Origin: Candidatus Multivorans sp.
Lineage (GTDB): Bacteria; Acidobacteriota; Thermoanaerobaculia; Multivoradales; Multivoraceae
Assembly (NCBI GenBank): GCA_965224025.1
Contig: OZ245033.1
Location: 3,648,001-3,712,000 of the forward strand
Direction of reading: 5' to 3'
DNA length: 64,000 nt
Below the pieces are notes generated by a model. The model was not told the DNA's origin and ran no database searches. It saw nothing but the letters and a program-made list of their open reading frames with translations. Made by a program: the position numbers and the translations under genes. Shown here in pieces: positions 5,634 through 21,482 of the stretch. Each line of letters starts with the position of its first letter. The first letter of the stretch is position 1.

Positions 5634-6565
5634 CGTCCCGCCTCCAGAAAGGACCGCAGGTCCTCCCGGCTGACCGCCGGTTCGCCCGGGGCCACGTTGT
5701 CCAGCCGCCCGTCGCCCAGCCAGCGCTCCAGGCGGCGCACTTCGTGCTCCAGGTGATCAAAGCCGTCGACGACGAACAAGAGGGGCTGCACGGAGTCGAT
5801 CTCAAAGCTCTGGTTCACGACCCAGTCGAGCTGGAAGGGCACCCGCTGCACTTTGGCCGCTTCGAGCGCGTGCACGATCTCGCCGGCCGAACTCAGAAGA
5901 CCGCTGCCGTAGGCGCAGAGACCGTCCCCTCCCGGCCGCCGCATCAGACCGAACTCGATCGTGAACCAGAAGAACCGCGCGAGCGCCTTGAGCGCACTCT
6001 CGACGCGGCGGCAGTCGCCCTCCCGAGCGCGCAGCGCCGCCGTGCGCGCCGCCTCGCCGAAGCGGACCAGGACGTCCGCGAACGCCGGGTCCGTGTGCAT
6101 GGGGACGTGGCCCGCCAGGTCGTGGAAAATGTCGGGCTCGGGCAGGTAATTCAGCCTCTCGCCGTCGCGGACGGTGATCGTGGTCGGAAACGCCCGCCGC
6201 CTCAGACAGTCGAAGAACAGGTAGGCCGGCACGTAGCCGCTGACCGCCCGCGCCTTGAAGCCGCTCAGGGGTTCCAGGAACCGGTTGATGTCGGCGAGGC
6301 GTGGGATGCGGTCCGGGTCAAGCGCCAGACGCGTCACGCCGTCGAGGAAGCGCGGATGGGCGTGCTTCTCCCAGCGTCCGGCCAGCGCCCGGTAGAGGCG
6401 CTTCCAGGTCCGCTGGTTCGACTCGCTGTAGAGCGCGTACGGCTGTTCGATGAACAACTCGCCTCGGGTTTGGGCCCGCTCGATGAAGTCGGCCCGGCCG
6501 GTCGTCAGGTCCCGGCCCGTGGCCGGCGCCATGACCGCCGGGTCAACCGCTCCAACTGTAGGCAT
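5627..6565 (-). CDS. phhA: Phenylalanine 4-monooxygenase (pterin-dependent aromatic amino acid hydroxylase)
   Basis: YLPEPDIFHDLAGHVPM iron-binding motif, FFWFTIEFGL, YGSGLLSSAGE; operonic with hppD and hmgA. Confidence 0.9.
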   Translation of the reverse strand: MPTVGAVDPAVMAPATGRDLTTGRADFIERAQTRGELFIEQPYALYSESNQRTWKRLYRALAGRWEKHAHPRFLDGVTRLALDPDRIPRLADINRFLEPLSGFKARAVSGYVPAYLFFDCLRRRAFPTTITVRDGERLNYLPEPDIFHDLAGHVPMHTDPAFADVLVRFGEAARTAALRAREGDCRRVESALKALARFFWFTIEFGLMRRPGGDGLCAYGSGLLSSAGEIVHALEAAKVQRVPFQLDWVVNQSFEIDSVQPLLFVVDGFDHLEHEVRRLERWLGDGRLDNVAPGEPAVSREDLRSFLEAGRQ

Positions 6566-7700
6566 AGCTCTCGTCCTCCAGGTCGGCCGCGGCAGCCGTC
6601 GTCTGCAGCGGCCGGAAGGTGTCCACCATGACCGCGAGTTCGTCGGTGCGCTCCTTGCCGATCGATCCCTCGTAGGCGCCCGGATGGGGCCCGTGCGGAA
6701 TGCCGTTCGGATGCACGGTCAGAGCCCCGCGCTCCACTCCGCGCCGCGACATGAAGTCGCCCTCGACGTAGTAGATGACCTCGTCCGAATCGACGTTCGA
6801 GTGGTTGTAGGGAGCGGGAATCGCCTGCGGGTGGTAGTCGAACAGCCGCGGCACGAAGGAGCAGACGACGAACCCGGGGCCGTCGAAGGTCTGGTGTACC
6901 GGCGGCGGCTGGTGGACGCGACCGGTGATCGGCTCGAAGTCCTCGATGTTGAAGGCGTACGGCCACAGGTGGCCGTCCCAGCCGACGACGTCCATCGGGT
7001 GGCGGCGGTAGAGGTAGCGGGTGACGCCGCCGCGGGCCTTGACCCGGACCTCGAACTCGCCCTCCTCGTCGTGCGCATCGACCCACTCCGGCTGTCGGAT
7101 GTCGCGCTCGCAGTACGGCGAGTTCTCGAGGAACTGGCCGTACCGGTTGACGTAGCGGCGCGGCGGCTCGATGTGGCCCGCCGCCTCGACACACAGCATC
7201 CTCTGCGGCTCGTCCGCTCGCGGCAGGAGTCGCCAGACGACGCCGGTGGGCAGCACGAGATAGTCCCCCGGGCGGTACTCCAGCAGGCCGAACTGCGTCT
7301 CCAGCATGCCGTGACCCTCGTGCACGAAGAGCAGCTCGTCACCGTGCGCGTAGCGGTACCAGTAGGCCATCGGCGCCCGGAAACGGGCCACGGACAGCAC
7401 CAGATCGCGGTTCGTCAACAGGGGCATCCGGCCGCTGACCGCGTCTCCCTGCTCGGGCGCCCGGCCGGCCCGGATCAGACGGTGTCGCAGCGGACCCGCG
7501 TAGTCCAGTTTCAGACCGTTGGCGGTCCTTTCCTCGATGCGCTCGATTGCGGTCGGAGGGTGCAGGTGGTAGAGAATCGACTGGACCCCTGAAAAGCCAT
7601 GGATCCCCATGACCTCCTCGTGGTGAAGCGATCCGTCGGGCTTGCGGAACTGGGTATGACGCTTGTGCGGAATCTCGCCCGCGCGCAGGTAGTAACTCAC
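6543..7700 (-). CDS. hmgA: Homogentisate 1,2-dioxygenase
   Basis: GEIPHKRHTQFR, HQPPPVHQTF, VCSFVPR, PYNHSNVDSDEV, HPNGIPHGPHPG; GTG 7700 overlaps the hppD stop (GTGA). Confidence 0.93.
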   Translation of the reverse strand: MSYYLRAGEIPHKRHTQFRKPDGSLHHEEVMGIHGFSGVQSILYHLHPPTAIERIEERTANGLKLDYAGPLRHRLIRAGRAPEQGDAVSGRMPLLTNRDLVLSVARFRAPMAYWYRYAHGDELLFVHEGHGMLETQFGLLEYRPGDYLVLPTGVVWRLLPRADEPQRMLCVEAAGHIEPPRRYVNRYGQFLENSPYCERDIRQPEWVDAHDEEGEFEVRVKARGGVTRYLYRRHPMDVVGWDGHLWPYAFNIEDFEPITGRVHQPPPVHQTFDGPGFVVCSFVPRLFDYHPQAIPAPYNHSNVDSDEVIYYVEGDFMSRRGVERGALTVHPNGIPHGPHPGAYEGSIGKERTDELAVMVDTFRPLQTTAAAADLEDESYAYSWSG

Positions 7701-8857
7701 AGGTTCCCCCTCGCCGCCTGTTCGCGCTCCAGAGCCACGAAGAGACTCTTGAAGTTTCCCTCCCCGAATCCCCTCGCCCCGTGGCGCTCGATGATCTCGT
7801 AGAACAGCGTCGGCCGGTCTTCCACCGGCTTGGTGAAGATCTGCAGCAGGTAGCCGTCCTCGTCGCGGTCGGCGAGGATGCCGAGTTCGGCCAGGCGATC
7901 GATCGGTTCGTCGATCTTCCCTACCCGCTGCTCGAGGTCCTGGTAGTAGGCCCCCGGTACGTGAAGGAACTCGACCCCGTTCTCGCGCAGCCGCGACACC
8001 GTGCCGAGGATGTCGTCGGTGCGACAGGCGATGTGCTGCACGCCGGGACCCTCGTGGAACTCGAGGTACTCCTCGATCTGCGACTTCCTGCGACCCTCGG
8101 CGGGCTCGTTGATCGGGAACTTGATGACCCCCGAGCCATCCTGCATCACCTTGGACATGAGCGCCGAGTACTCGGTCGAGATCGCCGCGTCGTCGAAGTG
8201 GACAAGCTGGTTGAAGCCCAGGACGCGCGAAAAGAACCGGGCCCACTCGTTCATCCGCCCCAACTCGACGTTGGCCACGACGTGGTCGACCGCGAGCAGG
8301 CCGCAGCTCCGGGGCCCGTCGGCGCCGGGGACCTCCGGCGCCGGTTCGAAACCGGGGCCGAAGACGCCGCCGTAGTCCCGGCGCTCCATGAACTGCAACA
8401 CGCAATCGCCGTAGAGATGGATCGAGGCGTGGCGCAGTTCGCCTTGCTTGTCTCGGACGGTTGCCGGCGACGCCGCGGCCTCCGCGCCTCGCGACACCGC
8501 TGCGGAGAACGCCTTGTCCGCGCTCGGTACCGAGAGCGCGATCACCGCTACCGAATCGCCGTGCCGCCGAACCGACCGCGCCGCATCGTGCGAGGAATGC
8601 AGCGCACTGGTCAGCACGAGCCGGATATCGCCCTGCTCCACCAGGTACGACGCGCGCGCCCGCTCGCCGGTCTCGAGCCCCCGCACCGCGGTGCACTCGA
8701 AACCGAACGCATGGCAGTAATAGGCGGCCGACTGCTTCGCGTTGCCGACGTACAGCTCCAGATGGTCGAAGCCGAGAATCGGACAGAAGTCCTCCCCGGT
8801 CGCGGCGCTTCGACCAACGAACCCCGGCTGTGTCTGTTCAGTAGCCCCTAAACTCAT
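7697..8857 (-). CDS. hppD: 4-hydroxyphenylpyruvate dioxygenase
   Basis: DHVVANV, KFPINEP, KSQIEEYL, GPGVQHIA, YLLQIFTKP, GFGEGNFKSLF; GAGGAGG SD before ATG 8857. Confidence 0.96.
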   Translation of the reverse strand: MSLGATEQTQPGFVGRSAATGEDFCPILGFDHLELYVGNAKQSAAYYCHAFGFECTAVRGLETGERARASYLVEQGDIRLVLTSALHSSHDAARSVRRHGDSVAVIALSVPSADKAFSAAVSRGAEAAASPATVRDKQGELRHASIHLYGDCVLQFMERRDYGGVFGPGFEPAPEVPGADGPRSCGLLAVDHVVANVELGRMNEWARFFSRVLGFNQLVHFDDAAISTEYSALMSKVMQDGSGVIKFPINEPAEGRRKSQIEEYLEFHEGPGVQHIACRTDDILGTVSRLRENGVEFLHVPGAYYQDLEQRVGKIDEPIDRLAELGILADRDEDGYLLQIFTKPVEDRPTLFYEIIERHGARGFGEGNFKSLFVALEREQAARGNL

Positions 8858-8898
8858 TCCTTCCCTCCTCGTCTTCGTTGTTCGGCCCGGCAGGGACC

Positions 8899-10152
8899 TC
8901 AAATGCAGGCGGCGAAGTTCGCCACCGCCTCGCGCAGAGCCGCCGGTTCCAGGCGCGAGAAACTCAAGCGGGCAGCGTTCGTGGGCACGGCGCGGTCCGC
9001 CCCGTCCGCGAACGCAACCGCGGGAACGAAGGCGATCTTCCGCTCGGCCAGGGTCCGCTGGAGCAATTGCTCCCCGTCCGTCCCCTCGGGCAGTTGCACC
9101 CACACGAACATGCCGCCCCCGGGCTGAGTGAAAGCGCAGCCCGCCGGGAGATGAGCGGCAAGTGCCTCGAGCATCGCGTTCCGACGGCCCCGGTAGGTCG
9201 CTCGCAGCAGTTCGAGGTGGCGGTCGAAGTCCAGATCTCCCAGCAGGCGGGCCACGGCAAGCACGCTGAGCCTGGAGCACTCGAGGTCCCCGATCTCCTT
9301 GACGGCGCCGAATGTCTCGATCAGCGATGCCGGCAGTCGCAGCCAGCCGAGGCGCAGCGCCGGGGCCAGGATCTTGGAGAAGGTGCCCGCGTAGACGACC
9401 CGCTCCGAGTCGATGGCCGCGAGCGGGGGCTCGAACTCGCCGTCGCAGCACAGCAGACCGTAGGGATCGTCCTCCAGGATCACGAAGTCGTAGTCGTGCG
9501 CCAGGACCACCAACCGTTCCCTGACCTCGCGCGCCAGGCTTACGCCGAGCGGGTTGTGCGCATCCGGGATCACGTACACCAGCCGCGGCCGGGCGCCGGC
9601 GACCAGGCGGCGCTCCAGCGCCTCGACATCGAGCCCGTCGTCCAGGCTGCTCGGCAGAGTGACGAGTCGCGGCCGGAGCGGCGCCAGAACCTCCCTGAAG
9701 CCCGCATACGCATAACGCTCGACGGCGACACTCTCACCCACACTCACGAGTGCACGAACAACGACATCGAGGGCCTGCTGCGCGCCCGTCGTGATCAGGA
9801 TCTCCTCCACTCTGCAATCGACGCCACGGCGTCGCATGACCTCCACGACGCGTTCCTTCAGTTCCCCGCATGACGGGACGTACTGCATGGACTGCGGATC
9901 GGCCAGCAGTTGGCGCACCACTTCGCCGTAGGCCCGCGACGGAAACAGCTCCACGGCCGGCAGCCCGCCGGCGAGCGACACCACGCCGGGCCGCGCGACC
10001 TGGTCGACCAGCCGACGCAGCAGCGAGCGCTCGCGACCCTGTAGCCACGGCGCGATACGCGGCGTCTTCGACGGCTGCCGCTCCCCCGTCCGGGCTGCCA
10101 ACGGAGGCTCCATTGCGGCCGTTGCGGTGGTGGAAATCGCTTGCATGGCCAC
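8899..10152 (-). CDS. PLP-dependent class I aminotransferase (ARO8/MocR-like), probably aromatic amino acid transaminase
   Basis: SLAGGLP, ITTGAQQALD, HNPLG, EDDPYG, GTFSKILAPALRLGW (PLP lysine), ARLSFS; first gene of the hppD operon; GTG 10152 or ATG 10146. Confidence 0.88.
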   Translation of the reverse strand: MAMQAISTTATAAMEPPLAARTGERQPSKTPRIAPWLQGRERSLLRRLVDQVARPGVVSLAGGLPAVELFPSRAYGEVVRQLLADPQSMQYVPSCGELKERVVEVMRRRGVDCRVEEILITTGAQQALDVVVRALVSVGESVAVERYAYAGFREVLAPLRPRLVTLPSSLDDGLDVEALERRLVAGARPRLVYVIPDAHNPLGVSLAREVRERLVVLAHDYDFVILEDDPYGLLCCDGEFEPPLAAIDSERVVYAGTFSKILAPALRLGWLRLPASLIETFGAVKEIGDLECSRLSVLAVARLLGDLDFDRHLELLRATYRGRRNAMLEALAAHLPAGCAFTQPGGGMFVWVQLPEGTDGEQLLQRTLAERKIAFVPAVAFADGADRAVPTNAARLSFSRLEPAALREAVANFAACI

Positions 10153-10236
10153 GCTTGGAACGATAACAGAGCCAGCACCGGGAGACAAGCGTTGATTCCA
10201 CACCCAGCGGAACCTGTACGTGTAGACTCCGCTTCC

Positions 10237-10779
10237 ATGGACAAGACAGACGATCGGCGGGCAGCGGAGTCAAGCCGCTCCCCGAGCCGGCCCCTTGACG
10301 CCACCGACTACGCCATCCTCGCGCTCCTGCAGGAGGATTCGAATCGAACCGACGTGGACCTCGCGCGCCAGGTGCGCCTGTCCGCCTCGGGCCTGAAGAA
10401 GCGCCTGCGCAAGCTGGAACAGCGCGGCGTGATCCAGCAGCGAGTCACCCTGCTGGACCGCAACGCCGTCGATCTCGGCCTGCTGTGCTTCGTGCAGGTC
10501 TTCCTCACTCACCACCAGGCCGACGCCCGACGGCACTTCAGTGATGCCGTCCGGAAGCTGCCGGAAGTACTCGAGTGTCACTTCCTGACCGGCGAGCACG
10601 ACTACATGCTGAAGATTGTGGCCAGGGACTATCGCCACCTGGAACACATCCTCGCTGACCAGCTCGCCTGCATACCGGGAGTCGACCGTCTGCTGACGAG
10701 CATCGTGCTGAACGAGATCAAGCGCACGACCGCTCTGCCGCTCGGGGCCCCGGCGGAGGCCGGCACAGGAGATTTGTAG
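10237..10779 (+). CDS. Lrp/AsnC family transcriptional regulator (copy 1)
   Basis: LDATDYAILALLQED HTH, EVLECHFLTGEHDYMLKI effector domain; divergent from the aminotransferase operon. Confidence 0.93.
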   Translation: MDKTDDRRAAESSRSPSRPLDATDYAILALLQEDSNRTDVDLARQVRLSASGLKKRLRKLEQRGVIQQRVTLLDRNAVDLGLLCFVQVFLTHHQADARRHFSDAVRKLPEVLECHFLTGEHDYMLKIVARDYRHLEHILADQLACIPGVDRLLTSIVLNEIKRTTALPLGAPAEAGTGDL

Positions 10780-10847
10780 GGGTCTCCAAGCATCCGCGCC
10801 GTCCGGCCTCCAGGGTTTCCGCCGGCTCTTGCTACCCTCCCGCTCCA

Positions 10848-12404
10848 ATGAACGGCGCCCAAGCCATGATCCGGACCGCCGCCAATGCCGGCGTCGAGGT
10901 CTGCTTCGCCAATCCCGGCACGTCCGAGATCCACCTCGTCGCGGCTCTCGACGAGATCCCGGGCGTGCGCGGCGTGCTGGCTCAGTTCGAGGGCGTCGCC
11001 ACCGGCGCCGCGGACGGCTACGGCCGCATGGCCGGCAAGCCGGCGTTGACCCTGGTCCATCTCGGCCCCGGCTTCGCGAACGGCATCGCCAACCTGCACA
11101 ACGCGCGGCGCGGCCACACGCCGCTCGTCAACGTCATCGGCCACCATCCCACCTGGCACCGCAACTACGACCCGCCGCTCAACACCAGGGTCGAGAGCCT
11201 GGTAGAGGGAGTCTCCGACTGGCAACGAACAGTCGCCTCGGCCAATCACATCTCGCGCGACATGGCCGCCGCCATCTCGGCTTCCCTGCACCACCCGGGG
11301 CGGATCGCCACCTTGATCGTGCCCACCGACTGCCAGTGGAGCGAAGCCGGAGGAAGGGTCGTCGAGCCGGCCTCTCCGCTCGGCGCCCGCGTCGCCCCGG
11401 ATGCGGTCGAGCGCGCCCGGGCCGCCGTAGGCCGAGGCGCGCGCACGATGCTCATGCTGGGCAGTTCCGGAAATACGGCCGCAGCCCAGCGAGAAGCCGC
11501 GAAGGTACAGCGGGCGACCGGATGCCGACTCGTCGCCGAGACGTTCTCGGGGCGCATGGAGCGCGGTCCGTCTCTGCCGACGCTGCCCAGGTTGCCCTAC
11601 TTTCCCGAGCAGGCTGCCGAGTTCATGAGCGGGATCGACACGCTCGTCCTGGGCGGAGCGCTCGATCCCGTCGCCTTCTTCGGCTACGAGGGCGGCCCAA
11701 GCCGCTTGACTCCGGAGTCGGTGGAAGTCGTCATCCTGAGCCATCCCACCGAAGACAGCGGCCACGCACTCACCGAGCTGGCCCTGGCTCTCGACGCCAA
11801 GGAAGAGCCGCCGGCCCGCGCCGTCGAGCGGCCGCCGGCGCCAAGCGGCCCGATCGGAACCCGGGTCGCGGCCCAGGCTATCGCCGCCACGCTGCCCGAG
11901 AACGCGATCGTCATGGATGAGGGAATCACCGCCGGTTCCGCCTTCTATCCCGCCACGATGAACGGCCCCGCTCACACCTACCTGCAGGAGAACGGCGGCG
12001 CCATCGGCCTGGGCCTGCCGGCGTCGCTCGGCGCAGCGATCGCGTGCCCGGACCGCAAGGTGCTGACGCTCGAGGGCGACGGCAGCGGCCTGTACACGGT
12101 GCAGGCGCTCTGGAGCCAGGTCCGCGAGGGGGTCGACGTCGTCAATCTGGTGTTCGCCAACGACATCTACCGCATCCTTCAGGTCGAGCTGCAAAGAGCC
12201 GGGGTCGAGGAGTTCGGGCCGCAGAGCCTGAACCTGACGGAGTTCCGCGAGCCGCGGGTGGAGTGGCTCGACCTTGCCCGAGGTTTCGGCATGCCCGCCG
12301 TGCAGGTGCGCACCGGCGAAGAGCTGACCGCGGCGCTCGAGCGCGGTTTCGCCGAACCTGGCCCCTGCCTGATCGAAGCGCTGGTCAGCGACTCCACCTT
12401 CTAG
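10848..12404 (+). CDS. Thiamine diphosphate-dependent enzyme (acetolactate synthase large subunit / benzoylformate decarboxylase-like)
   Basis: FANPGTSE, ADGYGRM, HLGPGFANG, GDGSGLY...N TPP-binding motif. Confidence 0.88.
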   Translation: MNGAQAMIRTAANAGVEVCFANPGTSEIHLVAALDEIPGVRGVLAQFEGVATGAADGYGRMAGKPALTLVHLGPGFANGIANLHNARRGHTPLVNVIGHHPTWHRNYDPPLNTRVESLVEGVSDWQRTVASANHISRDMAAAISASLHHPGRIATLIVPTDCQWSEAGGRVVEPASPLGARVAPDAVERARAAVGRGARTMLMLGSSGNTAAAQREAAKVQRATGCRLVAETFSGRMERGPSLPTLPRLPYFPEQAAEFMSGIDTLVLGGALDPVAFFGYEGGPSRLTPESVEVVILSHPTEDSGHALTELALALDAKEEPPARAVERPPAPSGPIGTRVAAQAIAATLPENAIVMDEGITAGSAFYPATMNGPAHTYLQENGGAIGLGLPASLGAAIACPDRKVLTLEGDGSGLYTVQALWSQVREGVDVVNLVFANDIYRILQVELQRAGVEEFGPQSLNLTEFREPRVEWLDLARGFGMPAVQVRTGEELTAALERGFAEPGPCLIEALVSDSTF

Positions 12405-12423
12405 AGACGCGAATCGGGCCCGG

Positions 12424-13461
12424 TTGAAGTACGCGGTCACACTCCTGCCAGGGGACGACATCGGTCCCGAAGTCAGCAAGGCGATGGTGCGCGCGGTCGA
12501 CTTCGTCACCGTCAGCCGGATCGAGTGGGAGCCGGTCGTGGCCGGCAGCACGGCCGTCGACCAGGGACTCTCACCGCTCCCGGACGAGGCGATCGAGTCG
12601 ATCCGGCGCAACCGGATCGCCATCAAGGGTCCTCTGCAGACCCCGGTGGCCGGCGGCTGGCGCAGCGTCAACGTCCTGTTGCGGCAGTCGCTGGAGCTGT
12701 TCGCGTGCGTGCGGCCGGTGCGGTCGATGCCCGGCAACACCCGCGCCCGCTACGACGGCGTCGACCTGATCATCGTGCGGGAGAACACGGAGGGCCTCTA
12801 CAGCGGCCGCGAGCACGAGGTCGTCGACGGCGTGGTCGAGGCTCTCAAGATCGTCACCCGGGCCGCCTCGCGGCGGATCATGCAGTTCGCCTTCGAGTAC
12901 GCGCGCAGCCACGGCCGCAAGAAGCTGACGATCGTCCACAAGGCGTCGATCACGCCGCTGTCGGACAACCTGTTCCTGGACTGCGCCCGCGAGTGCGAAC
13001 GGAACTACCCCTTCTTCCAGGTCGACTACCTGCCGCTCGACAACCTCGCGCTGGAACTGGCCAAGGATCCGACCCGGTTCGACATGTTGGTGATGGGCAA
13101 CCTGGACGGAGACCTGATGAGCGACCTCTGCGCCGGCCTGGTCGGCGGGCTGGGCCTCGTTCCGGGAGCGAACTACGGCAACGGCTGCGCGGTGTTCGAA
13201 GCGGTACACGGCACGGCGCCCGATATTGCCGGCCGCGATTTGGCCAATCCGATCGCCCTGATCCTGTCCGCCGAGTTGATGCTGCGCTACGTCGGCGAGG
13301 CGGAGGCGGCGGCGCACCTGCGCGCCGGCGTCGAACGCCTCCTGATTGGTGGCAAGGCGCTCACCCGTGACCTTGGAGGCACGGCAAACACGTCCGAATT
13401 CACCGACGCCCTGCTGGCCGAACTCGAGGCCGTGGCCATGGAGCGCGAGGCCGCACGATGA
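12424..13461 (+). CDS. Isocitrate/isopropylmalate dehydrogenase family protein, paralog A (catalytic-like)
   Basis: PGDDIGPE, KGPLQTP, SVNVLLR, RENTEGLY, GDLMSDLCAGLVGGLG, EAVHGTAPDIAG, ANP, TRDLGG. Confidence 0.9.
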   Translation: MKYAVTLLPGDDIGPEVSKAMVRAVDFVTVSRIEWEPVVAGSTAVDQGLSPLPDEAIESIRRNRIAIKGPLQTPVAGGWRSVNVLLRQSLELFACVRPVRSMPGNTRARYDGVDLIIVRENTEGLYSGREHEVVDGVVEALKIVTRAASRRIMQFAFEYARSHGRKKLTIVHKASITPLSDNLFLDCARECERNYPFFQVDYLPLDNLALELAKDPTRFDMLVMGNLDGDLMSDLCAGLVGGLGLVPGANYGNGCAVFEAVHGTAPDIAGRDLANPIALILSAELMLRYVGEAEAAAHLRAGVERLLIGGKALTRDLGGTANTSEFTDALLAELEAVAMEREAAR

Positions 13462-14503
13462 CCGGCGACGGCGAGCAGAACGGCGGTCCGCCGCGTGTCG
13501 CGCTGATCGTCGGCGCCAGCGGCATCGGCACCGAAACCGCGCCACCGGTGCTCGCGATCCTGGAGGCGGTGGGCGCCGACTTCGACTTCGTCCGGGTCGA
13601 CGTGCCGACGGCGGTGCGCCGGAACACGGAAACGGTGCTCAGCGAGGCGGCCGAGACGATCCGCGACTGCCGGGTGGCGCTCAAGACCCGGCTGATCGGG
13701 CCTGGTCCGGACGCCGTGCGCGTCGGACCGGGTCCTCAGAACGCCAACGTCGCGCTCAGGCAAATGCTGGGCCTGTGGGCGAGCGTTCGACCGATGCGCT
13801 CCATACCCGGACTGCCGACGCGCTACCCGGACCTCGACGTCCTACTGATCCGTGAGATCACCGAGGGCGTGTACCGGGGCATCGAGCACGAGATCGTGGA
13901 CGGGGTGGTCGAGAGCATGAAAGTCGTGAGCCGCGCCGCCTGCCAGAGAATCGCGGACTACGCCTTCCGCATCGCCCAGCGGCATCAGCGCAAGAAGATC
14001 ACGGCCATCCACAAGGCCAACATCATGAAGCAGAGCGACGGTCTCTTCCTGGACACCGTACGCTCCGTCGCCACCGGCTATCCCGACATCGAAGTCGACG
14101 ACTGCATCGTCGATGCCGCGTGCATGCGTCTGGTGCTCGATCCGTACTCGTTCGACGTACTGCTGACGGAGAATCTCTACGGCGACATCATCAGCAACCT
14201 CGGCACCGGACTCGCGGGCGGCATCTCCGCCGGCCACGCGATCAACGTCGGCGACGACTGCCACGTCTTCGAGGCCGTTCACGGCGACGCGCCGCACCTG
14301 ATCGGCACCGGCCAGGCGAATCTCCTGCCGCTGCTGACGCCGGCCACCGCGCTCCTCAGACACTTCGAACTCTACGACGAGGCCGACCGGATCGACCAGG
14401 CGGTGACCACCGTTCTCGAGGAAGCCGAAGTCTGACGCCCGACCTGGGCGGCCGGTCGTCGACCTGGCAGATGGCACGGAGCATCGTTGCGGCGCTGACG
14501 TAG
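13458..14503 (+). CDS. Isocitrate/isopropylmalate dehydrogenase family protein, paralog B (regulatory-like; frameshift near 14430)
   Basis: ATGA overlap with paralog A; REITEGVY, HKANIMKQSDGLF, NLYGDIISN, EAVHGDAP. Frame stops at 14435 but the conserved LTPDLGG tail continues in another frame to 14503. Confidence 0.85.
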
Positions 14504-14789
14504 GTCGAGGTAGCAAGAAGTCCTCCACCGGGCGCAGGGCCAGACGGGAGAACCGGCGGGCAATCGTTCGGAATCGCGCCGGGTTCGGCCTCGGTGAACT
14601 CGCCGCACGCCCGGCACCGCGAGCAACTCGAAGCTGTGAAGCCGTCCCCAGGGTCTCGCTTCTTCCGTGGGCGGCGAAGCCAATGGCTCATCTGCGCTTA
14701 TGGCGGTCATTTGCTCAGTCTTGTCTCATTGTTGCCCTCTTTCGGCCTTTCCAAGCCCACGCCATACGAGGAAAATAACAAGACTAGGC

Positions 14790-17700
14790 ATGATTCATCA
14801 GCCCCCGGCGCGGGAGAATAAGTCGGCCCGCCAGCGCCTCCTGACCGGCTGCGGCCAGCCGTGGCGGCGACTCCTCGCCTTTAGGTATGCGGCATCCGCC
14901 GCCGCCGGGTCCCGCGCGTCCGTCTGTCGCGCGCCGCCGGCTCGTCCGCTCCGCGCGCTGGCCCCCGCGGTGCTACTCGCCCTCTCCGGCGCGCTCGCGC
15001 TGCCCGCCACGGCCCAGACCGTCGTGCTGGTCAGCAGTTTCGGAAACGACCAGGCAACGGCGAACCTAAAGGTCGGCACATCTAGCTGGGCGAAGTGCTT
15101 CAGCACGGGCACGAACAGCGGGGGGTACGACCTGACCAGCCTCGAGCTCGACGTCAAAGTCGTGCCGGCTTCGACGGCCGAGCTCAGGGTGGCGATCTAC
15201 TCATCGACCTTGGCGTCGGGCGAGGTGGTGCCGGACTCCGAAGTGGTTGCATTGGATATTCCGACGCTGGCCGTGGGAACGAGCACCTTCACGGTGCCGG
15301 CGAACACGGTGCTGGCGGCCAGCACGGTCGCTGCCACTGCGAGCTATTGCGTCGTGGTCGGAGACTCGGCGTTTGGCGGGACTACTCTGGAGCTGGGGAG
15401 GGCCACCACTGGTTCAGCGGACAGCACAGGGCTGACGGGTTGGGCTCTTGGGAGCGGGTACCAGAAACCGCTGTTGTCGCTTTGGGGCCTTGACGACGGT
15501 CCCGACAAGATGCGGGTTCGCCTGAACGGCAGCGCGGTGTCGACGGACGCGACGCTGAGCGCGCTGTCCCTGGGCACGGGCGTGACGCTGAGCCGGCCCT
15601 TCGCCTCGGGCGCCACCACCTACACGGCGTCGGTGGCGAACAGCGTCGACGAGGTGACGGTGACGCCGACGACGAACCATGCCCAAGCGACGTACGTATA
15701 CCTGGACGCGTCCGACAAAGCGCTCGCCGACGCGGACATCAACACGGCCGGCCACCAGGTGGCGCTGACGGTGGGCGACACCGTCTTCAAGGTGAAGGTG
15801 ACGGCCGAGGACGCCACCACGACGCAGACCTACAGCGTGACCGTGACGCGGGCGGCGCCCCCCCGGCTGAGGCCGGCGCTGAGCATCGCGGACGCTGCGG
15901 CATCCGAGGGCGACCCCATGTCTTTCGGGTTGACGCTGTCGGCAGCGGCTTCAGAGGACCTGAGGGTGATCTGGGTATTGTCGATCGAGAGCGGCGACAC
16001 GGCGGCCACTACGGACCTCGGGCTCTCTGACGGGATTGTGACCATCACGGCGGGCCAGATGACGGGAGCGATCACCTACGCGTCGGCGGAGGACGAGATC
16101 GACGAGCCGGACGAGACCTTCACGATCACGCTGATGGAGGTGCTTCCGTCGCGTCTCGCGCTGTTGGCGGCGGACCCGACGGCCAAGGGCACGATCAGGG
16201 ACGACGACCCGGAACCGACGCTGAGCGTGGGCAGTACTGTGGGGAACGAAAACGACGGCTTTCTGACGTTCCCGGTCGAGCTGTCGGCCGCGAGCGGCAA
16301 GACGGTGACGGTGGACTGGGAGACATCTACGGAGTCGGGCGACACGGCGACCTATGACACGGACTTCAAGGCGGATTCGGAGACGCTGACCTTCATTCCG
16401 GGCGACGTGGCGGGGAACTTCACGGTGGAGGTGATCCCCGACGCGGACGTCGAAAACGACGAGACCTTCACGGTGACGCTGTTCAACGCGACCAACGCGG
16501 GGATTTCGGACGCGACGGCGCGGGGCACGATCATCGACGCGGGCTGCAGGCTGAACACCGGCGACCTGTGGTGCGGTGTTTTGACGGTGGGGCCGATCAG
16601 CACTACCCAGGACGGCTTCTTCGGCGCGACGGGCGGCCTGTCGGACGCGACGTTCTCGGTGGGGACCGCCAGTTACGCGATCGACCAGGTGAGTGTCGCC
16701 AACTCCACCTCGACGAACCCGGGGCGACTTCTCTTCAGCCTGACCGGCGGCCTCACCACCGTCCAGAAGGCCAAGCTGGTGCTGCATGTGGACAGCGAGC
16801 AGTTCGCGTTCAGCGCGGCACTGTACTTGGGCGGCAACCACAGCTACCGATGGACCGGCACGAGCCTGGACTGGTCGTCCACCTCCACGGTGACGCTGCG
16901 CCTGCGGGCGGCCAACAGCGCCCCGGTGTTCGCCGACGCCAGCGTGGCGCGGGAGGTGGAGGAGAACAGCGTTGCGGGGACCGATGTCGGCGCCGTGGTG
17001 CCGGCGACCGACGCGGACAGCGGCGACACGCTGGAGTACAGCCTGGAGGGGCCGGGCGCGGCGGCGTTCGACATCGACGACTCCTTGGGCCAGATCCGGA
17101 CCGTGTCGGGCCAGGACTACAACCACGAGGCGAGGAACTCCTACTTGATGTCGGTGAAGGCCTCGGACGGCATCGCCAGCGACACGATCGCCGTGACGAT
17201 CAACGTCACGGACGTCAACGAGAAGTCGGCCAAGCCGGACAAGCCGACGCTGGCGGCGGTCGCGGGCTCGTCGCAGCGCCTGGACTCAAGCTGGACGAAG
17301 CCGGACCTGAACGGCGGGCCGGATATCACCGGCTACGCCCTGCAGTACCGCGAGGTCGCGACGGGCAGTTGGGAGGACTTCGCGCACACCGGCGCCGGCG
17401 TCACGGCGACGATCACCGGGCTGACGGCGAACACCGACTATCAGATCCAGGTGCTGGCGAAGAACGGGGAGACCGACAGCGACTGGTCGGACTCCTCCGA
17501 CGTGGCGAGCACGAATCCGGCGAAGCCGCCGGACCTCACCGAAGTCTACGCCGGCGAGGCTGGCTTGACCATCCTTTGGGCGCCCGTGCGGGACGATCAC
17601 CCCGCCGCGACCTACGACTTGCGCTACATCGACTTGACGCCCACATCGGGAGAGTCACCGGACGCGGGCGATCCCGACGCCTGGACCGTAGTCGAGAATG

Positions 17701-20700
17701 TCTGGCGCCGGCCCGCCGCCGGCGCCCCCCTCTACGTCCTGCAGGGCCTGGAGAACTTCCATGACTACCTGGTCGCGGTGCGCGCGGTTCAGCCCGGAGG
17801 CAATCAAGGCCCGTGGTCCGAACAGGGCGCGTCGGTGTCGCCTGCACCCCACCCGGACAACGCCTCCCAGGAAGATCCCGATGCCAGGAAGGCCACGGAG
17901 CTGCCGTTCGACAGACCTGTGTCCGGCTTCCTCCAGGACCCTGCCCCCGGCCAAGCCGGTATTGGTGACTCCGACTACTTCAGGTTCGTACTCGACCGTA
18001 GGAACTCGGCGATTGTGTGTTACACCACAGGCGACGTCGACACTGCCGCCCGGATCGTCGTGGATGGCGATGTCGACAATGTCACACGAGTCGTTGCGGG
18101 CGGCCGGCCCAAGGACGGCCGGAACAACTTCCGCTTCGCAATGAACGAATCCGACTTCTCCGGCGCCTTCTCGCTGCGGGTCCACACGCGTCTTGACGAG
18201 TCTCGTGACGAGTTCGGCATACCAATCCCCGACTCCGGCACGCCAATGCCTGGCGGTGCGTATGCACTGGAATGCAAGTTCGCACCCGAAACGAGCTCCA
18301 TAATAGACGCGCAGAACATCCGTTTCTATGCCGAGACCGCGGTGTCCTTCGAAGCGCCCGGGGACCGCGAGTACCTGGCCTTCGATGTCGACGGCTCGAG
18401 CGATATCCTCCTCTACAGTCGCGGCGCCGCTGACACCCAAGCCCGAGTGCTTGACGAACGCGGCAACGTCGTCGCCTTCAGCGACGACAGAGTGCTCCAC
18501 CAACAACAACCGAAGAACTTCGCTATTCTCCTGGAAACGGAGGATCTGCCCAATGGCCGGTACGTTCTGGAGGTAGAACGATGGCCGAGAATAAACCCGT
18601 TCACGCGCGACACGGAAACGGAAATCGCGTATGTCGTCGTGTATCCGTCCGTGGCGCCCGAGAGCGGCGCGGTTGAGGACGCTTTGCCGGTGGAGCTGGG
18701 CTTCTTCGGCGGTGAGCTTGGCGACCCGAGGGCCGGGACCCTTGACTCGCCAGGGGACGGTGCGATCTTCCAGTTTGATCTGGACGAGCCGAACCATGTC
18801 TTCATCCGTGCGTTGGCTCAGTTGGAACGAAGGTGGGACCCATCCTCTACCCGGCTCCGCATGGACCTCCTCACTGAAAGGGGAGATACGGTCGACATGC
18901 ATCAGCGTCACGAGCCCTTCCCTCACGACAGCAATAAGCTTCAGGAATCCCTGACCTCCACGACCTTCCTTGACGCGGGCCGGTACTATCTTCGACTCCG
19001 TTACCATAAGGACGACCAGGTTCCTTTCATCGTCCTGGCCGGCAACCCGTATCCACTTCCGTATTTCCTTCTCGCTCTGACGGACCCCTCGCAGATCGAG
19101 ATCTTCGAGGAATGCTCCTCGCTTGGCGCGTCATCCAGCGACCCCCTGCGACCATGCCAGTGGCATCTCGATGCCGTCAGGGTCCAACCGGCCTGGGATG
19201 CAGGCTATAGGGGCGCAGGCATTGAGGTGCTGGTCTCTGATGATGGAATCGACGACCTCCACGAGGACCTGAAACCGAACCTGCACCCGAGTCGCGTGTA
19301 CGACTTTGGCCATGGCGGTTCCGATGCTTTTCACGGCTACGATGCTCACGGCAGCGCCGTAGCCGGCATAGTTGCCGCGCGGGACAACGATCTCGGGGGG
19401 CGAGGCGTGGCGCCGCGTGCGAACCTGCGTGTGCACAAGCTCTTCCCGTCTACGACGATCGGGTTCATCACCCAGTCCCTTACCCGTGACATGGCCACTG
19501 TCGCGATCATGAACAACAGCTGGGGCCAGGTAGGTCCACAGCCACACCTTCCGCAGGAGCCGCTTTCAGAAGCCCTGGCCCTCGCCATCGAAGAAGGCAT
19601 CACCCGCGGCTACGGCGGCCGGGGCGTGCTCTACGTGCATGCGGGTGGCAACAACGCCGCGAATGCAGGCGATGCGAACTACGGCCCCTTGCAGACCCAC
19701 TACGGCATTGTGGTGGTCGCTGCAACCAGTGAAGATGGCGACCCTCAGCCCTACTCGGACATAGGCTCCAATCTCTGGGTCTCCGGGCCGTCCGGTAATC
19801 TTCCCCCCGCCATATACACGACCGACAACTACAACCGCTACACGGATGCGTTCAGTGGAACATCAGCCGCGGCGCCGGTCGTGAGCGGCGTCGCCGCGTT
19901 GGTAAGAGAGGCCAACCCATCTCTTACCTGGCGAGACGTCAAGTTGATCCTGGCCTCCACCGCGCGGAAGGTGAACCCGGACAGCTCCTATTATAATTGG
20001 AGGCAGGCCGGCCGGAAGTACGACAACCACTCCGAACACTACTACCACAGCAATTTTTTTGGTTTCGGATTAGTCGACGCCGCGGCGGCCGTCGAGCTCG
20101 CAACTCGCTGGACCAATCTTCCACCGTTCGTCGAAACTGCCGGCGAGTCGGCGGAGGAAGTACACCTGGGCAGTTCAAAGGTGAGCGAAAGCAAGCTCAC
20201 CGTCTTGGCTGGGGACGTGGACTTCACGGAGTGGGTCTCCGTGGAATTCACGATCGACATCGATCGCTTCCGATCGTACGCAATCGAACTTGTGTCGCCA
20301 TCGGGAGTTCGTACATATCTGAGCTTCGGGTCAAGTGTTGTGGGTATTGTTCTCCCCGGAGCTGGAGAGCAACTTCCGTCGGAGTTCGCAAAACTGTTCG
20401 ACTTTCATCCGGGCGGGATTACGGGCACCGTGGGGTTTGGTTCCGCGGCGTTTCTGGGACTGAATCCGGTTGGCCAGTGGACTCTGCGCTGGGAACGGGT
20501 ACTGAAGGAGGGACAACCGAGTGACCATGAAGACGACGTCCTGAAGTCCTGGTCCCTGACGGCTCACGGACATGGGCGGAGCGGCTCAGCAGGAGGGTCT
20601 CCTGGGCCGCCCACTCCTCCCGAGCCGCCCCCGGCTCCTGAACCGCCCGCTCCGCCCGAGCCGCCCGCTCCTCCCGAACCGCCCCCGGCTCCTGAACCGC

Positions 20701-21482
20701 CCGCTCCTCCCGAGCCGCCCCCGGCTCCTGAGCCGCCCCCGGGACCGCTGGAGGCGCGCCTTGGGTCCGATGCGGACTGCACTGAAGAGTTGTGCCGCGC
20801 CCACGCGGGCGTACCGGTACTGTTCAACGACGTAAGTTCGGGGATCGTAAGGTCCCGAACGTGGGACTTCGGCGACGCCACGACGTCGAGCAGTCCCCGG
20901 GTCCCCCATTCGTGGGCGGCGCCGGGCTTCTACACGGTCACGTTGACGGTAAGTGACGGCGCGGACCGATCGACGGTGTCCCGAGTCTTCCTGGTCGAAT
21001 CGAGCGAACCCGCAGGGTTCTGCGAAGCGGGCGCCTACACGCAGTGCCTGCGCGACTCGCGATACCACGTCCGCGTCAACTGGTGGAATGACGGCGGCCA
21101 AACCGGTGCCGCCCGCGTGGTCCACGCGGGCACGAACGACTCAGGAGCGTTCTGGTTCTTCGACCAGGACAACTGGGAAGTGCTCATCAAGGTGCTCGAC
21201 GGCTGTGCACGGAATGGACACATCTGGGTCTTCGGCAGCTCAACGACCGATCGTGGATACCGCATCGTCGTCACCGACACGGTGACCGGCACGTTCCGCG
21301 AGTACACGAATGAGCCGGGACACCCGGCCCCGGCCATCACGGATGTCGTCGCGTTCGATTCCGAATGCCGCGGCGCCGGCGCCACCGATGCGCCGCAGGG
21401 CGCGCAGGCCCCGCCCTGGAGAGAGCTACACAACCTGCCCGAGACACCTCGCGAAGAAAGAGAGCGTGAACCATGGAAATGA
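14790..21482 (+). CDS. Giant secreted multidomain S8 (kexin/furin-like) serine protease with cadherin-like, Calx-beta, cadherin, FN3, P-domain and PKD modules
   Basis: Signal ending ALALPATAQ; DATLSALSL..VTVTPTT; two Calx-beta (DEIDEPDETFTITL, DVENDETFTVTL); cadherin NSAPVF..ATDADSGD; FN3; S8 motifs DDGID, HGSAVAG, NNSWG, AGGN, SGTSAAAP; YGFG-like FFGFG; P-domain; PKD WDFGD..PGFYTVTLTV. ORF open from 14667. Confidence 0.88.
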   Translation: MIHQPPARENKSARQRLLTGCGQPWRRLLAFRYAASAAAGSRASVCRAPPARPLRALAPAVLLALSGALALPATAQTVVLVSSFGNDQATANLKVGTSSWAKCFSTGTNSGGYDLTSLELDVKVVPASTAELRVAIYSSTLASGEVVPDSEVVALDIPTLAVGTSTFTVPANTVLAASTVAATASYCVVVGDSAFGGTTLELGRATTGSADSTGLTGWALGSGYQKPLLSLWGLDDGPDKMRVRLNGSAVSTDATLSALSLGTGVTLSRPFASGATTYTASVANSVDEVTVTPTTNHAQATYVYLDASDKALADADINTAGHQVALTVGDTVFKVKVTAEDATTTQTYSVTVTRAAPPRLRPALSIADAAASEGDPMSFGLTLSAAASEDLRVIWVLSIESGDTAATTDLGLSDGIVTITAGQMTGAITYASAEDEIDEPDETFTITLMEVLPSRLALLAADPTAKGTIRDDDPEPTLSVGSTVGNENDGFLTFPVELSAASGKTVTVDWETSTESGDTATYDTDFKADSETLTFIPGDVAGNFTVEVIPDADVENDETFTVTLFNATNAGISDATARGTIIDAGCRLNTGDLWCGVLTVGPISTTQDGFFGATGGLSDATFSVGTASYAIDQVSVANSTSTNPGRLLFSLTGGLTTVQKAKLVLHVDSEQFAFSAALYLGGNHSYRWTGTSLDWSSTSTVTLRLRAANSAPVFADASVAREVEENSVAGTDVGAVVPATDADSGDTLEYSLEGPGAAAFDIDDSLGQIRTVSGQDYNHEARNSYLMSVKASDGIASDTIAVTINVTDVNEKSAKPDKPTLAAVAGSSQRLDSSWTKPDLNGGPDITGYALQYREVATGSWEDFAHTGAGVTATITGLTANTDYQIQVLAKNGETDSDWSDSSDVASTNPAKPPDLTEVYAGEAGLTILWAPVRDDHPAATYDLRYIDLTPTSGESPDAGDPDAWTVVENVWRRPAAGAPLYVLQGLENFHDYLVAVRAVQPGGNQGPWSEQGASVSPAPHPDNASQEDPDARKATELPFDRPVSGFLQDPAPGQAGIGDSDYFRFVLDRRNSAIVCYTTGDVDTAARIVVDGDVDNVTRVVAGGRPKDGRNNFRFAMNESDFSGAFSLRVHTRLDESRDEFGIPIPDSGTPMPGGAYALECKFAPETSSIIDAQNIRFYAETAVSFEAPGDREYLAFDVDGSSDILLYSRGAADTQARVLDERGNVVAFSDDRVLHQQQPKNFAILLETEDLPNGRYVLEVERWPRINPFTRDTETEIAYVVVYPSVAPESGAVEDALPVELGFFGGELGDPRAGTLDSPGDGAIFQFDLDEPNHVFIRALAQLERRWDPSSTRLRMDLLTERGDTVDMHQRHEPFPHDSNKLQESLTSTTFLDAGRYYLRLRYHKDDQVPFIVLAGNPYPLPYFLLALTDPSQIEIFEECSSLGASSSDPLRPCQWHLDAVRVQPAWDAGYRGAGIEVLVSDDGIDDLHEDLKPNLHPSRVYDFGHGGSDAFHGYDAHGSAVAGIVAARDNDLGGRGVAPRANLRVHKLFPSTTIGFITQSLTRDMATVAIMNNSWGQVGPQPHLPQEPLSEALALAIEEGITRGYGGRGVLYVHAGGNNAANAGDANYGPLQTHYGIVVVAATSEDGDPQPYSDIGSNLWVSGPSGNLPPAIYTTDNYNRYTDAFSGTSAAAPVVSGVAALVREANPSLTWRDVKLILASTARKVNPDSSYYNWRQAGRKYDNHSEHYYHSNFFGFGLVDAAAAVELATRWTNLPPFVETAGESAEEVHLGSSKVSESKLTVLAGDVDFTEWVSVEFTIDIDRFRSYAIELVSPSGVRTYLSFGSSVVGIVLPGAGEQLPSEFAKLFDFHPGGITGTVGFGSAAFLGLNPVGQWTLRWERVLKEGQPSDHEDDVLKSWSLTAHGHGRSGSAGGSPGPPTPPEPPPAPEPPAPPEPPAPPEPPPAPEPPAPPEPPPAPEPPPGPLEARLGSDADCTEELCRAHAGVPVLFNDVSSGIVRSRTWDFGDATTSSSPRVPHSWAAPGFYTVTLTVSDGADRSTVSRVFLVESSEPAGFCEAGAYTQCLRDSRYHVRVNWWNDGGQTGAARVVHAGTNDSGAFWFFDQDNWEVLIKVLDGCARNGHIWVFGSSTTDRGYRIVVTDTVTGTFREYTNEPGHPAPAITDVVAFDSECRGAGATDAPQGAQAPPWRELHNLPETPREEREREPWK
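20607..20742 (+). repeat. Tandem ~18-bp repeats encoding a Pro/Glu/Ala linker
   Basis: PPTPPEPPPAPEPPAPPEPPAPPEPPPAPEPPAPPEPPPAPEPPP between the P-domain and the PKD domain. Confidence 0.9.

What the first reader, a model, noticed from the sequence alone, without database searches (positions are those of the whole stretch)
12424..14503. Tandem IDH/IPMDH paralogs with complementary active-site decay: candidate bacterial heteromeric (IDH3-like) dehydrogenase
Seen: two translationally coupled paralogs. A keeps the metal ligands (DLMSD), the SVN..R substrate loop and the nucleotide loop (HGTAPDIAG, ANP), but its HKANIMK segment has drifted to HKASITP. B keeps HKANIMK and the VD Asp, but has DIISN, HGDAPHLIG and ANL. 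Known: active sites in this family lie between subunits, with the Lys and one Asp donated in trans; eukaryotic NAD-IDH (yeast Idh1/Idh2, mammalian IDH3) uses regulatory subunits that lost metal-binding Asp. Inference: an obligate A/B heteromer with one catalytic site (A cis + B trans) and a second site freed for allostery. Substrate is not established.
Basis: partly seen in the sequence, partly recalled or inferred. Interest (0 to 1): 0.75.

Follow-up and report, generated by a model that had tools for sequence, protein, structure and literature searches.

The report
Bacterial two-subunit isocitrate dehydrogenase pair
Two overlapping genes encode sister enzymes of the isocitrate dehydrogenase family whose changes fit together so that only a mixed pair has one complete active site, a design so far described only for mitochondria.

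Summary
A (12424-13461) and B (13458-14435) overlap by ATGA and are 45% identical. One thing was missed: B's frame stops at 14435. The family's usual C-terminus, up to 14503, lies in another frame because one base is missing that 10 of 10 close relatives have.

B is not a decaying copy. 97 of its best 120 homologues share its changes, and dN/dS is 0.08-0.15. In all 28 related loci with upstream sequence (Acidobacteriota, Acidimicrobiia), an A-type gene sits directly before the B-type gene.

The divergence is complementary. A is canonical in its own-site residues and changed in the parts it donates to its partner. B is the reverse. Only an A/B dimer therefore has one fully canonical site.

Two natural proteins fuse an A-clade domain to a B-clade domain. 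A fold model of A+B scores 0.90 against 0.00 for controls, though similar complexes are already solved.

A careful tree rejects common descent with the eukaryotic regulatory subunits, so this looks like a convergent analogue of IDH3. Not tested: substrate, allostery, physical binding.

The parts
12424..13461 (+). Gene A: the catalytic-type subunit (345 aa). It has a full set of own-site substrate, metal and NAD-loop residues. The Asn of the HKAN segment is replaced by Ser, and the interface helices are remodelled.
   Evidence: ORF. Pfam Iso_dh 308 bits. Best solved relative is human IDH3 alpha, 333 bits. Signature TSNRRRY / K173 / D206, D230, D234 / HGTAPDIAG / ANP. The A clade has 100/99 support.
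13458..14435 (+). Gene B as encoded: the partner subunit (325 aa ORF). It keeps the donated Lys, Asn and Asp. Its own-site Ser is replaced by Asn, the second metal Asp by Asn, and its nucleotide loops are altered.
   Evidence: ORF. Pfam Iso_dh 222 bits. Signature as shown. Close orthologues are 347-355 aa. dN/dS is 0.08-0.15.
13458..13461 (+). ATGA junction: B's start codon overlaps A's stop codon.
   Evidence: Sequence. An NTGA overlap is possible in 27 of 28 related loci; L030 has a 13-base spacer.
14421..14423 (+). Approximate site of a one-base gap relative to relatives. It shifts B's frame about 26 codons before the natural end.
   Evidence: DNA alignment of the window with 10 close loci; all 10 have one more base here and keep the frame.
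14432..14503 (+). The displaced 3' end of gene B. Read in the shifted frame it encodes the conserved family C-terminus (23 codons plus TAG).
   Evidence: Translation. It matches the C-termini of the 348-aa orthologues and the nearly invariant T, D, L, G, G columns of alignment A1.
10848..12404 (+). Upstream thiamine-diphosphate enzyme (518 aa), 20 bases before A. It may be co-transcribed. It is not part of the conserved pair.
   Evidence: Pfam TPP_enzyme_N and TPP_enzyme_C. NCBIfam NF005760, 679 bits against a cut-off of 363. Nearest solved structure is benzoylformate decarboxylase, about 108 bits. It lies upstream of A in 21 of 28 loci.
10240..10779 (+). Lrp/AsnC-type regulator upstream of the TPP-A-B run (context only).
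   Evidence: Pfam AsnC_trans_reg and HTH_24. It is conserved in 20 related loci and sits directly before A in L030.

Best explanation
A and B are the two subunits of a heterodimeric (possibly higher-order) dehydrogenase of the NAD-isocitrate-dehydrogenase subfamily. They are made in equal amounts from overlapping genes.

In this family each active site combines one subunit's own residues with a Lys, an Asn and an Asp donated by the partner.
- Site 1 is A's own residues plus B's donated residues. Every position is canonical, so it is the catalytic site, most likely for isocitrate with NAD.
- Site 2 is B's own residues plus A's donated residues. It carries all the family-specific changes: Ser to Asn, a metal-binding Asp to Asn or Ser, altered nucleotide loops, and the donated Asn to Ser. 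These replacements are themselves conserved. Site 2 is therefore probably non-catalytic but still selected, as a ligand-binding (regulatory) or structural site.

Shown: the conservation, the pairing of the genes, the complementary pattern and the natural fusions. Inferred: physical binding, the substrate, the cofactor and any regulation. The frameshift in B in this window is probably an assembly error or a very recent mutation.
For: 1. Gene pairing. The scan returned 80 loci, of which 29 carry a B-type gene. In all 28 with upstream sequence, an A-type gene lies directly upstream on the same strand. The 29th, L018, starts inside B. The other 51 loci have a single canonical gene and no paralogue in the flanks. 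The loci are titled Acidobacteriota or Thermoanaerobaculia and, for L023-25, L027 and L028, Acidimicrobiia. Stop and start can overlap in 27 of 28.

2. Residue conservation.
- A-type: 146 of 146 keep T, S, N, R, R, R, Y, D230 and D234; 145 of 146 keep K173 and D206; Asn175 is Ser in 136.
- B-type: 126 of 126 keep R119, Y126, K173, N175 and D206; D234 is Asn in 70 and Ser in 56; S82 is Asn in 118.

3. Segregation of changes. The positions changed only in A are 67, 140, 175, 178, 198, 204, 205, 207-209, 228, 231 and 280, and B is canonical there. The 26 positions changed only in B lie in own-site elements, and A is canonical there.

4. Published structures of the human enzyme (passages read). 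Lys173 and Asn175 of alpha reach into the gamma subunit's site and bind citrate or isocitrate. The metal is held by Asp230 and Asp234 of alpha plus an Asp of the partner (PMC5241874; PMC6827300).

5. Selection. dN/dS against 12 close loci is 0.05-0.12 for A and 0.08-0.15 for B.

6. Fusions. P0390 (712 aa, with a second full-length member P0491) and P0391 (709 aa) join two Iso_dh domains. Their N halves fall in the A clade (99*) and their C halves in the B clade with its sisters (96*).

7. Fold model of A+B. Score 0.90; best of 3 controls 0.00. That mark was reached by 116 of 157 solved complexes and 2 of 215 mismatched pairs. The runs agree in at least 94% of contacts, and the partner's pLDDT is at least 85. 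Like complexes are solved, so the pass may come from memory. A209 and A210 touch B247 and B248.

8. Substrate. A's substrate residues are identical to those of IDH3 alpha.
Against: - No experiment was done. Binding, substrate, cofactor and regulation are all inferred.
- A alone lacks only the donated Asn (Ser instead), so an A homodimer could be active.
- B keeps most catalytic residues (Tyr, Lys, two of the three Asp, and three Arg in 104 of 126), so activity at site 2 is not excluded.
- Neither protein reaches the curated cut-offs of the NAD-IDH equivalog models. A scores 375 against 510 and 362 against 432; B scores 275 and 298.
- The fused relatives' C halves keep all three Asp, so loss of the metal ligand is not needed for the partnership.
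- In this window B is frameshifted. If that is real, this strain lacks an intact B.
- The operon partner is a benzoylformate-decarboxylase-like enzyme, next to aromatic amino acid catabolism genes. That does not point to the citric acid cycle.
- I could not check whether these genomes hold another isocitrate dehydrogenase.
Confidence: 0.7

Rival explanations
1. A/B is a heteromer in which B is only a scaffold. Site 2 binds nothing of consequence, and B's role is to supply the donated Lys, Asn and Asp and to stabilise A.
For: One metal ligand is lost in 126 of 126 B-type sequences. The second Arg is lost in 22 of 126 (21 replaced, 1 gap). All nucleotide-binding elements are changed. The human alpha-beta dimer has a non-functional pseudo-allosteric site (PMC6827300, passages).
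Against: B-specific replacements are themselves highly conserved: Leu61 0.99, Ser257 1.00, Pro291 1.00, Asn95 0.94. So is A's Ser175, in 136 of 146. This points to new constraints, not drift.
Confidence: 0.2
2. A/B is a heteromer with two different working active sites. Site 2 would use Asn or Ser as a weaker metal ligand, and possibly another nucleotide or substrate.
For: B keeps Tyr, Lys (from A), Asp206 (from A), Asp230 and the Arg triad in most members. A conserved His replaces the Asp of the nucleotide loop in 88 of 126. The nearest sister sequences and the fused forms keep all three Asp.
Against: The same Asp is lost in the eukaryotic regulatory subunits (pattern D-N-N in the representatives). 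Five separate nucleotide-contact segments are altered at once.
Confidence: 0.12
3. A and B do not associate. They are two separate homo-oligomeric enzymes of one pathway that happen to be neighbours.
For: All characterised bacterial members of this subfamily are described as homo-oligomers (PMC4360740 and PMC3521221, passages). Gene adjacency alone does not show binding.
Against: A B homodimer would lack a metal ligand in both sites. The changes are complementary. Fusions exist in the same A-to-B order. Stop and start overlap across two phyla.
Confidence: 0.07
4. In this particular genome B is a fresh pseudogene. The frameshift is real, and A works alone.
For: One base is missing relative to 10 of 10 relatives, removing the last 26 or so residues including the conserved TPDLGG motif.
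Against: There is no other damage. dN/dS of the remaining 321 codons is 0.08-0.15. The gap lies in a short G run, a common site of assembly error. The neighbouring genes are intact.
Confidence: 0.12

Closest known systems
Eukaryotic mitochondrial NAD-isocitrate dehydrogenase (human IDH3 alpha/beta/gamma; yeast Idh2/Idh1)
   Same: It belongs to the same subfamily: the best solved matches are IDH3 alpha for both A and B. It has a catalytic subunit with all its own-site residues, plus a paralogous partner that lacks a metal-binding Asp but donates Lys, Asn and Asp. Some B-type members also lose the same Arg as the eukaryotic regulatory subunits.
   Different: The eukaryotic catalytic and regulatory subunits form their own clade (98/88*). 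B with its sisters is split from everything else (99/95*). A clade of B with the eukaryotic regulatory subunits is rejected (p-AU 0.0008). B keeps Asp230 and a recognisable nucleotide loop, whereas the eukaryotic regulatory loops are far more changed. In the bacterial pair the catalytic subunit also changes (Asn175 to Ser, interface helices). The genes overlap in an operon. Regulation is unknown.
Single-gene bacterial NAD-isocitrate dehydrogenases of the same subfamily (for example solved chains 6ltf/6m3s, and the 51 canonical loci found here)
   Same: Length, fold family and substrate, metal and NAD residues are identical to A's. They are 50-57% identical to A and 43-53% to B.
   Different: They stand alone with no paralogue in the flanks (51 of 51 loci). 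They keep the canonical donated segment and interface residues that A has changed.
Natural tandem fusions P0390 and P0391 (unnamed metagenomic or genomic proteins)
   Same: An A-clade domain is followed by a B-clade domain, in the same order as the gene pair.
   Different: They are a single polypeptide with a low-complexity linker of about 45 residues. The C-terminal domain keeps all three Asp.

Membership tests
Isocitrate/isopropylmalate dehydrogenase superfamily (Pfam PF00180) | Full-length match to the Iso_dh profile above the gathering score | tested here: met
   A scores 308 bits and B 222 bits, against a cut-off of 27. B's match stops at profile position 325 of 348 because of the frameshift.
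NAD-isocitrate dehydrogenase equivalogs (NCBIfam TIGR00175 mito_nad_idh; NF006529) | Score above the curated equivalog cut-off | tested here: not met
   A scores 361.6 against 432.4 and 375 against 510. B scores 298.1 against 432.4 and 275 against 510. These are still the best-scoring families for both.
NAD-isocitrate dehydrogenase (function) | Isocitrate-binding Thr, Ser, Asn, three Arg and Tyr; three metal Asp; an NAD-type Asp in the nucleotide loop | tested here: met
   Met for A alone, and for the composite site of A's own residues plus B's donated residues. Not met for B's own site. Residue roles are taken from passages of PMC5241874 and PMC6827300. Enzyme activity is not testable here.
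Heteromeric catalytic/regulatory NAD-IDH (IDH3 type), as an architecture | Two paralogous subunits that always occur together | tested here: met
   28 of 28 B-type loci with upstream sequence have A directly upstream. Many A and B hits share contig lengths in the two protein searches.
Heteromeric catalytic/regulatory NAD-IDH (IDH3 type), as an architecture | The partner subunit lacks a metal-binding Asp but supplies the donated Lys and Asp | tested here: met
   In B-type sequences D234 is Asn or Ser in 126 of 126 (this column defined the group). K173, N175 and D206 are kept in 126 of 126.
Heteromeric catalytic/regulatory NAD-IDH (IDH3 type), as an architecture | Physical heteromer | not testable with these tools
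   Indirect evidence only: the fusions, and a fold model scoring 0.90 against a best control of 0.00, a pass that may come from likeness to solved complexes.
Heteromeric catalytic/regulatory NAD-IDH (IDH3 type), as an architecture | Allosteric activation through the partner's site (citrate, ADP or AMP) | not testable with these tools
   There is only conservation of the remodelled site.
Eukaryotic IDH3 regulatory-subunit clade (descent) | B groups with the eukaryotic regulatory subunits in a tree | tested here: not met
   Careful tree of 66 rows: eukaryotic alpha plus regulatory subunits form one clade (98/88*), and B with its sisters is split from the rest (99/95*). The AU test gives dlnL 80.2, p 0.00084. 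An earlier quick LG+G4 analysis of 117 rows did not reject the clade (dlnL 1.67, p 0.479).

The most novel reading that the evidence does not exclude
Bacteria evolved, independently of eukaryotes, a two-subunit NAD-isocitrate dehydrogenase in which a paralogue gave up catalysis and became a ligand-sensing partner. The system is old and widespread: Acidobacteriota, Acidimicrobiia, and by protein names also Gemmatimonadales and Gemmataceae. It exists both as overlapping genes and as single fused polypeptides. The catalytic subunit has co-adapted its donated residues (Asn to Ser) and its interface (Tyr228 to Asp) in a way that favours the mixed dimer over the homodimer. It would be a convergent counterpart of mitochondrial IDH3, and a tractable model for how regulatory pseudoenzyme subunits arise.
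Probability: 0.35. Interest if true: 0.75.

Novelty: new variant of a known kind. Interest (0 to 1): 0.66.

Why it matters
Papers in the searched library treat hetero-oligomeric NAD-isocitrate dehydrogenase as a eukaryotic, mitochondrial feature, and its bacterial relatives as homo-oligomers (passages of PMC8333347, PMC4360740 and PMC3521221).

A conserved bacterial pair with the same division of labour, of separate descent, would show that this architecture evolved at least twice. It would also offer:
- a simple two-gene (or single fused gene) system for studying how a duplicated enzyme subunit becomes a non-catalytic partner;
- a correction to the annotation of hundreds of genes now named simply 'isocitrate dehydrogenase (NAD+)' (names).

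It could also bear on how central carbon flux is controlled in abundant but poorly studied Acidobacteriota and Acidimicrobiia.

Tried and rejected
- **2-oxoglutarate decarboxylase idea.** I considered that the upstream TPP enzyme might be a 2-oxoglutarate decarboxylase forming a cycle bypass with A/B. No succinic semialdehyde dehydrogenase is in the window. The nearest solved relative is benzoylformate decarboxylase. The TPP gene is absent from 7 of 28 pair loci. I dropped it as a defining part.
- **Promoter and terminator scan, 10100-14800.** It found 0 promoter-like sites and 1 terminator-like site on the minus strand, below the shuffle mean. This says nothing about the operon's limits.
- **Quick tree (117 rows, LG+G4).** It did not reject a clade of B with the eukaryotic regulatory subunits (dlnL 1.67, p 0.479). 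Its free tree came from a short search. I rely on the careful mixture-model analysis of 66 rows, but the conflict is real. The 66 rows were chosen by me from the 117.
- **Long representatives.** Among the 32 proteins of 430 aa or more in the representative search, none was an A-B tandem. The fusions came only from the 'longer' word-index search.
- **Literature.** Five searches found no report of a bacterial heteromeric isocitrate or isopropylmalate dehydrogenase. 'Candidatus Multivorans' gave 0 papers. PMC11976288 has nothing specific on the IDH3 donor (passages). I opened no supplements.
- **Not checked.** I did not model A/A or B/B dimers, because only one complex job was allowed.
Full report
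**What is in the window**

On the plus strand, ORF A runs 12424..13461 (345 aa) and ORF B runs 13458..14435 (325 aa). B's ATG overlaps A's TGA as ATGA. Both match Pfam Iso_dh, at 308 and 222 bits, and they are 45% identical to each other.

Their best curated families are the NAD-isocitrate dehydrogenase models, but neither reaches the equivalog cut-offs. The best solved relative of both is human IDH3 alpha: 333 bits for A and 229 for B. B scores lower against the regulatory subunits, with gamma at 196, beta at 185 and yeast Idh1 at 201.

B's frame ends at 14435. The conserved family C-terminus is encoded from 14432 to 14503 in another frame. Close orthologues are 347-355 aa and run through this region in one frame.

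A DNA alignment with 10 close loci shows that the window lacks one base at about 14421-14423, in a short G run. All 10 relatives have that base. The rest of B shows dN/dS of 0.08-0.15 against 12 relatives, compared with 0.05-0.12 for A. So the break is either an assembly error or very recent. I cannot tell which.

**B is not a decaying copy**

Of the best 120 homologues of B, 97 share its signature. That signature is Asn in place of the own-site Ser, Asn or Ser in place of the second metal Asp, and a nucleotide loop of the HGDAPHL type. The hits reach down to about 50% identity.

Of the best 120 homologues of A, all keep the complete substrate, metal and NAD set. In 117 of them the Asn of the HKAN segment is replaced, mostly by Ser.

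**The pair is a conserved unit**

A scan of one genome per species, using a B-type alignment, returned 80 loci.
- 29 loci carry a B-type gene. In all 28 that have upstream sequence, an A-type gene lies directly upstream on the same strand. The 29th, L018, begins inside B and comes from the same isolate as L034.
- The other 51 loci carry one canonical gene and no paralogue in the flanks.

The pair occurs in records titled Acidobacteriota, Thermoanaerobaculia, Holophagales or 'Candidatus Multivorans', and in five titled Acidimicrobiia. A's stop can overlap a start codon of B in 27 of 28 loci; L030 has a 13-base spacer.

The neighbours are not constant:
- The TPP enzyme lies upstream of A in 21 of 28 loci.
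- The HPPD, aminotransferase and Lrp genes are present in 20.
- Four of the five Acidimicrobiia loci (L023, L025, L027, L028) instead have an AhpC-like gene or a small unknown ORF (or both) upstream, and three of them (L023, L025, L027) a gamma-glutamyltranspeptidase downstream; L024's neighbours differ.

**The divergence is complementary**

I compared 146 A-type, 126 B-type and 74 canonical sequences. These sets are partly redundant, and three columns were used to define the groups.

A departs from the canonical residues at positions 67, 140, 175, 178, 198, 204, 205, 207-209, 228, 231 and 280. Ten of these 13 lie in residues 173-231, which is the donated Lys/Asn segment and the two interface helices. 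B is canonical at every one of them.

B departs at 26 other positions: the N-terminal glycine-rich loop, the substrate loop, the second metal Asp and three nucleotide-loop segments. A is canonical at those. Only 1 of these 26 falls in 173-231 (Fisher p 4.5e-6). The replacement residues are themselves conserved, for example A Ser175 in 136 of 146, A Asp228 in 131 of 146, and B Ser257 and Pro291 at 1.00.

Passages of two structural papers on the human enzyme explain why this matters. Lys173 and Asn175 of alpha reach into the partner's site and bind citrate or isocitrate. The catalytic metal is held by Asp230 and Asp234 of alpha plus an Asp of the partner (PMC5241874; PMC6827300).

Mapped onto A and B, every change falls in one composite site (B's own residues plus A's donated residues). 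The other site (A's own residues plus B's donated residues) is fully canonical. An A homodimer would carry Ser at both donated positions. A B homodimer would lack a metal ligand in both sites.

**Fusions**

A search for longer relatives found P0390 (712 aa, with a second full-length member P0491 from another source) and P0391 (709 aa). Each has two Iso_dh domains joined by a low-complexity linker of about 45 residues.

In a tree of 70 rows, the N halves fall inside the A clade (13 rows, 99*). The C halves fall inside the clade of B and its sister sequences (23 rows, 96*). The C halves share B-type hallmarks but keep all three Asp.

So the partnership seems older and wider than the loss of the metal ligand. 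Names attached to sister clusters mention Gemmataceae and Gemmatimonadales.

**Fold model**

A+B, each given as an alignment, scored 0.90, and the best of 3 controls scored 0.00. That mark was reached by 116 of 157 solved complexes and by 2 of 215 mismatched pairs. The runs agree in at least 94% of contacts, and the partner's pLDDT is at least 85.

Similar complexes are already solved, so the pass may reflect that likeness and not show that these copies bind. In the model, 7 of the 13 positions changed only in A are interface residues, and A209 and A210 touch B247 and B248. That places A's remodelled helix against B's changed metal position.

**Relation to eukaryotic IDH3**

Representatives from an exhaustive search include eukaryote-type proteins with N-terminal extensions. 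P0241 matches human alpha at 531 bits and P0303 matches human gamma at 606 bits.

In a careful mixture-model tree of 66 rows:
- the eukaryotic alpha and regulatory proteins form one clade (98/88*);
- A forms a clade (100/99*);
- B with eight sister representatives is split from all the rest (99/95*).

Forcing B to group with the eukaryotic regulatory subunits costs 80.2 log-likelihood units (p-AU 0.00084). An earlier quick analysis of 117 rows did not reject that grouping (p 0.479). The tree is unrooted.

I read this as convergence: the Asp-to-Asn change, and in 21 of 126 B-type proteins the loss of the same Arg, arose separately from the eukaryotic regulatory subunits.

**Is it known?**

Five full-text searches found no bacterial heteromeric member of this family. 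Passages of three papers describe the hetero-oligomeric form as eukaryotic and the bacterial relatives as homo-oligomers. Source names for these proteins are generic. The library lacks most subscription journals, and I read no supplements.

**Verdict**

The heteromer reading is well supported by comparative evidence, but not proven. The substrate (probably isocitrate with NAD), the role of the second site and the meaning of the TPP neighbour remain open.

Noticed in passing
window 5630-10203, minus strand: A run of aromatic amino acid catabolism genes lies divergent from the Lrp-TPP-A-B run: a biopterin-dependent hydroxylase (5630-6565), a weak homogentisate-dioxygenase-like ORF (6546-7700), 4-hydroxyphenylpyruvate dioxygenase (7700-8800) and an aminotransferase or MocR-like protein (8899-10203). 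The arrangement is kept in 20 related loci.
   Followed up: partly
window 10848-12404 +: The TPP enzyme passes the NCBIfam model named 'acetolactate synthase large subunit' (NF005760). However, it has no detected central domain, and its nearest solved relative is benzoylformate decarboxylase at only about 108 bits. Its real substrate is unknown.
   Followed up: partly
window 14667-21482 +: A giant ORF of 2271 aa has cadherin-like, Calx-beta, fibronectin III, subtilase S8 and PKD domains and a proline-rich repeat stretch near the C-terminus. It is probably a secreted or surface protease.
   Followed up: no
window 23518-24531 +: An IstB-like IS21 helper ATPase sits inside a stretch of lower G+C (about 0.62-0.65 between 18 and 26 kb). 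This suggests an insertion element just downstream of the giant ORF.
   Followed up: no
window 43011-46637 and 47076-50750, +: Two paralogous ORFs of about 1200 aa have an N-terminal carboxypeptidase-regulatory-like domain, and one also shows an outer-membrane beta-barrel match. They are TonB-dependent-receptor-like proteins.
   Followed up: no
proteins P0089, P0258, P0288, P0294, P0313, P0348, P0350, P0372 (no window coordinates): A sister group of the B-type proteins keeps all three metal Asp but has varied nucleotide loops. The outer A-clade members P0228, P0234 and P0240 carry Ser, Gly or Thr in place of the donated Asn. These may form further, earlier-diverging pairs; I could not see their gene neighbourhoods.
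   Followed up: partly
L018 and L034: These are two contigs of one isolate that break inside the B gene: L034 ends in B and L018 starts in B. So one genome was counted twice among the 80 loci.
   Followed up: yes
L023:955-1566, L025:1319-1924, L028:8337-8945: In Acidimicrobiia loci a conserved ORF of about 203 aa with no Pfam match lies directly upstream of the A gene, preceded in L023 and L028 by an AhpC-like gene.
   Followed up: no
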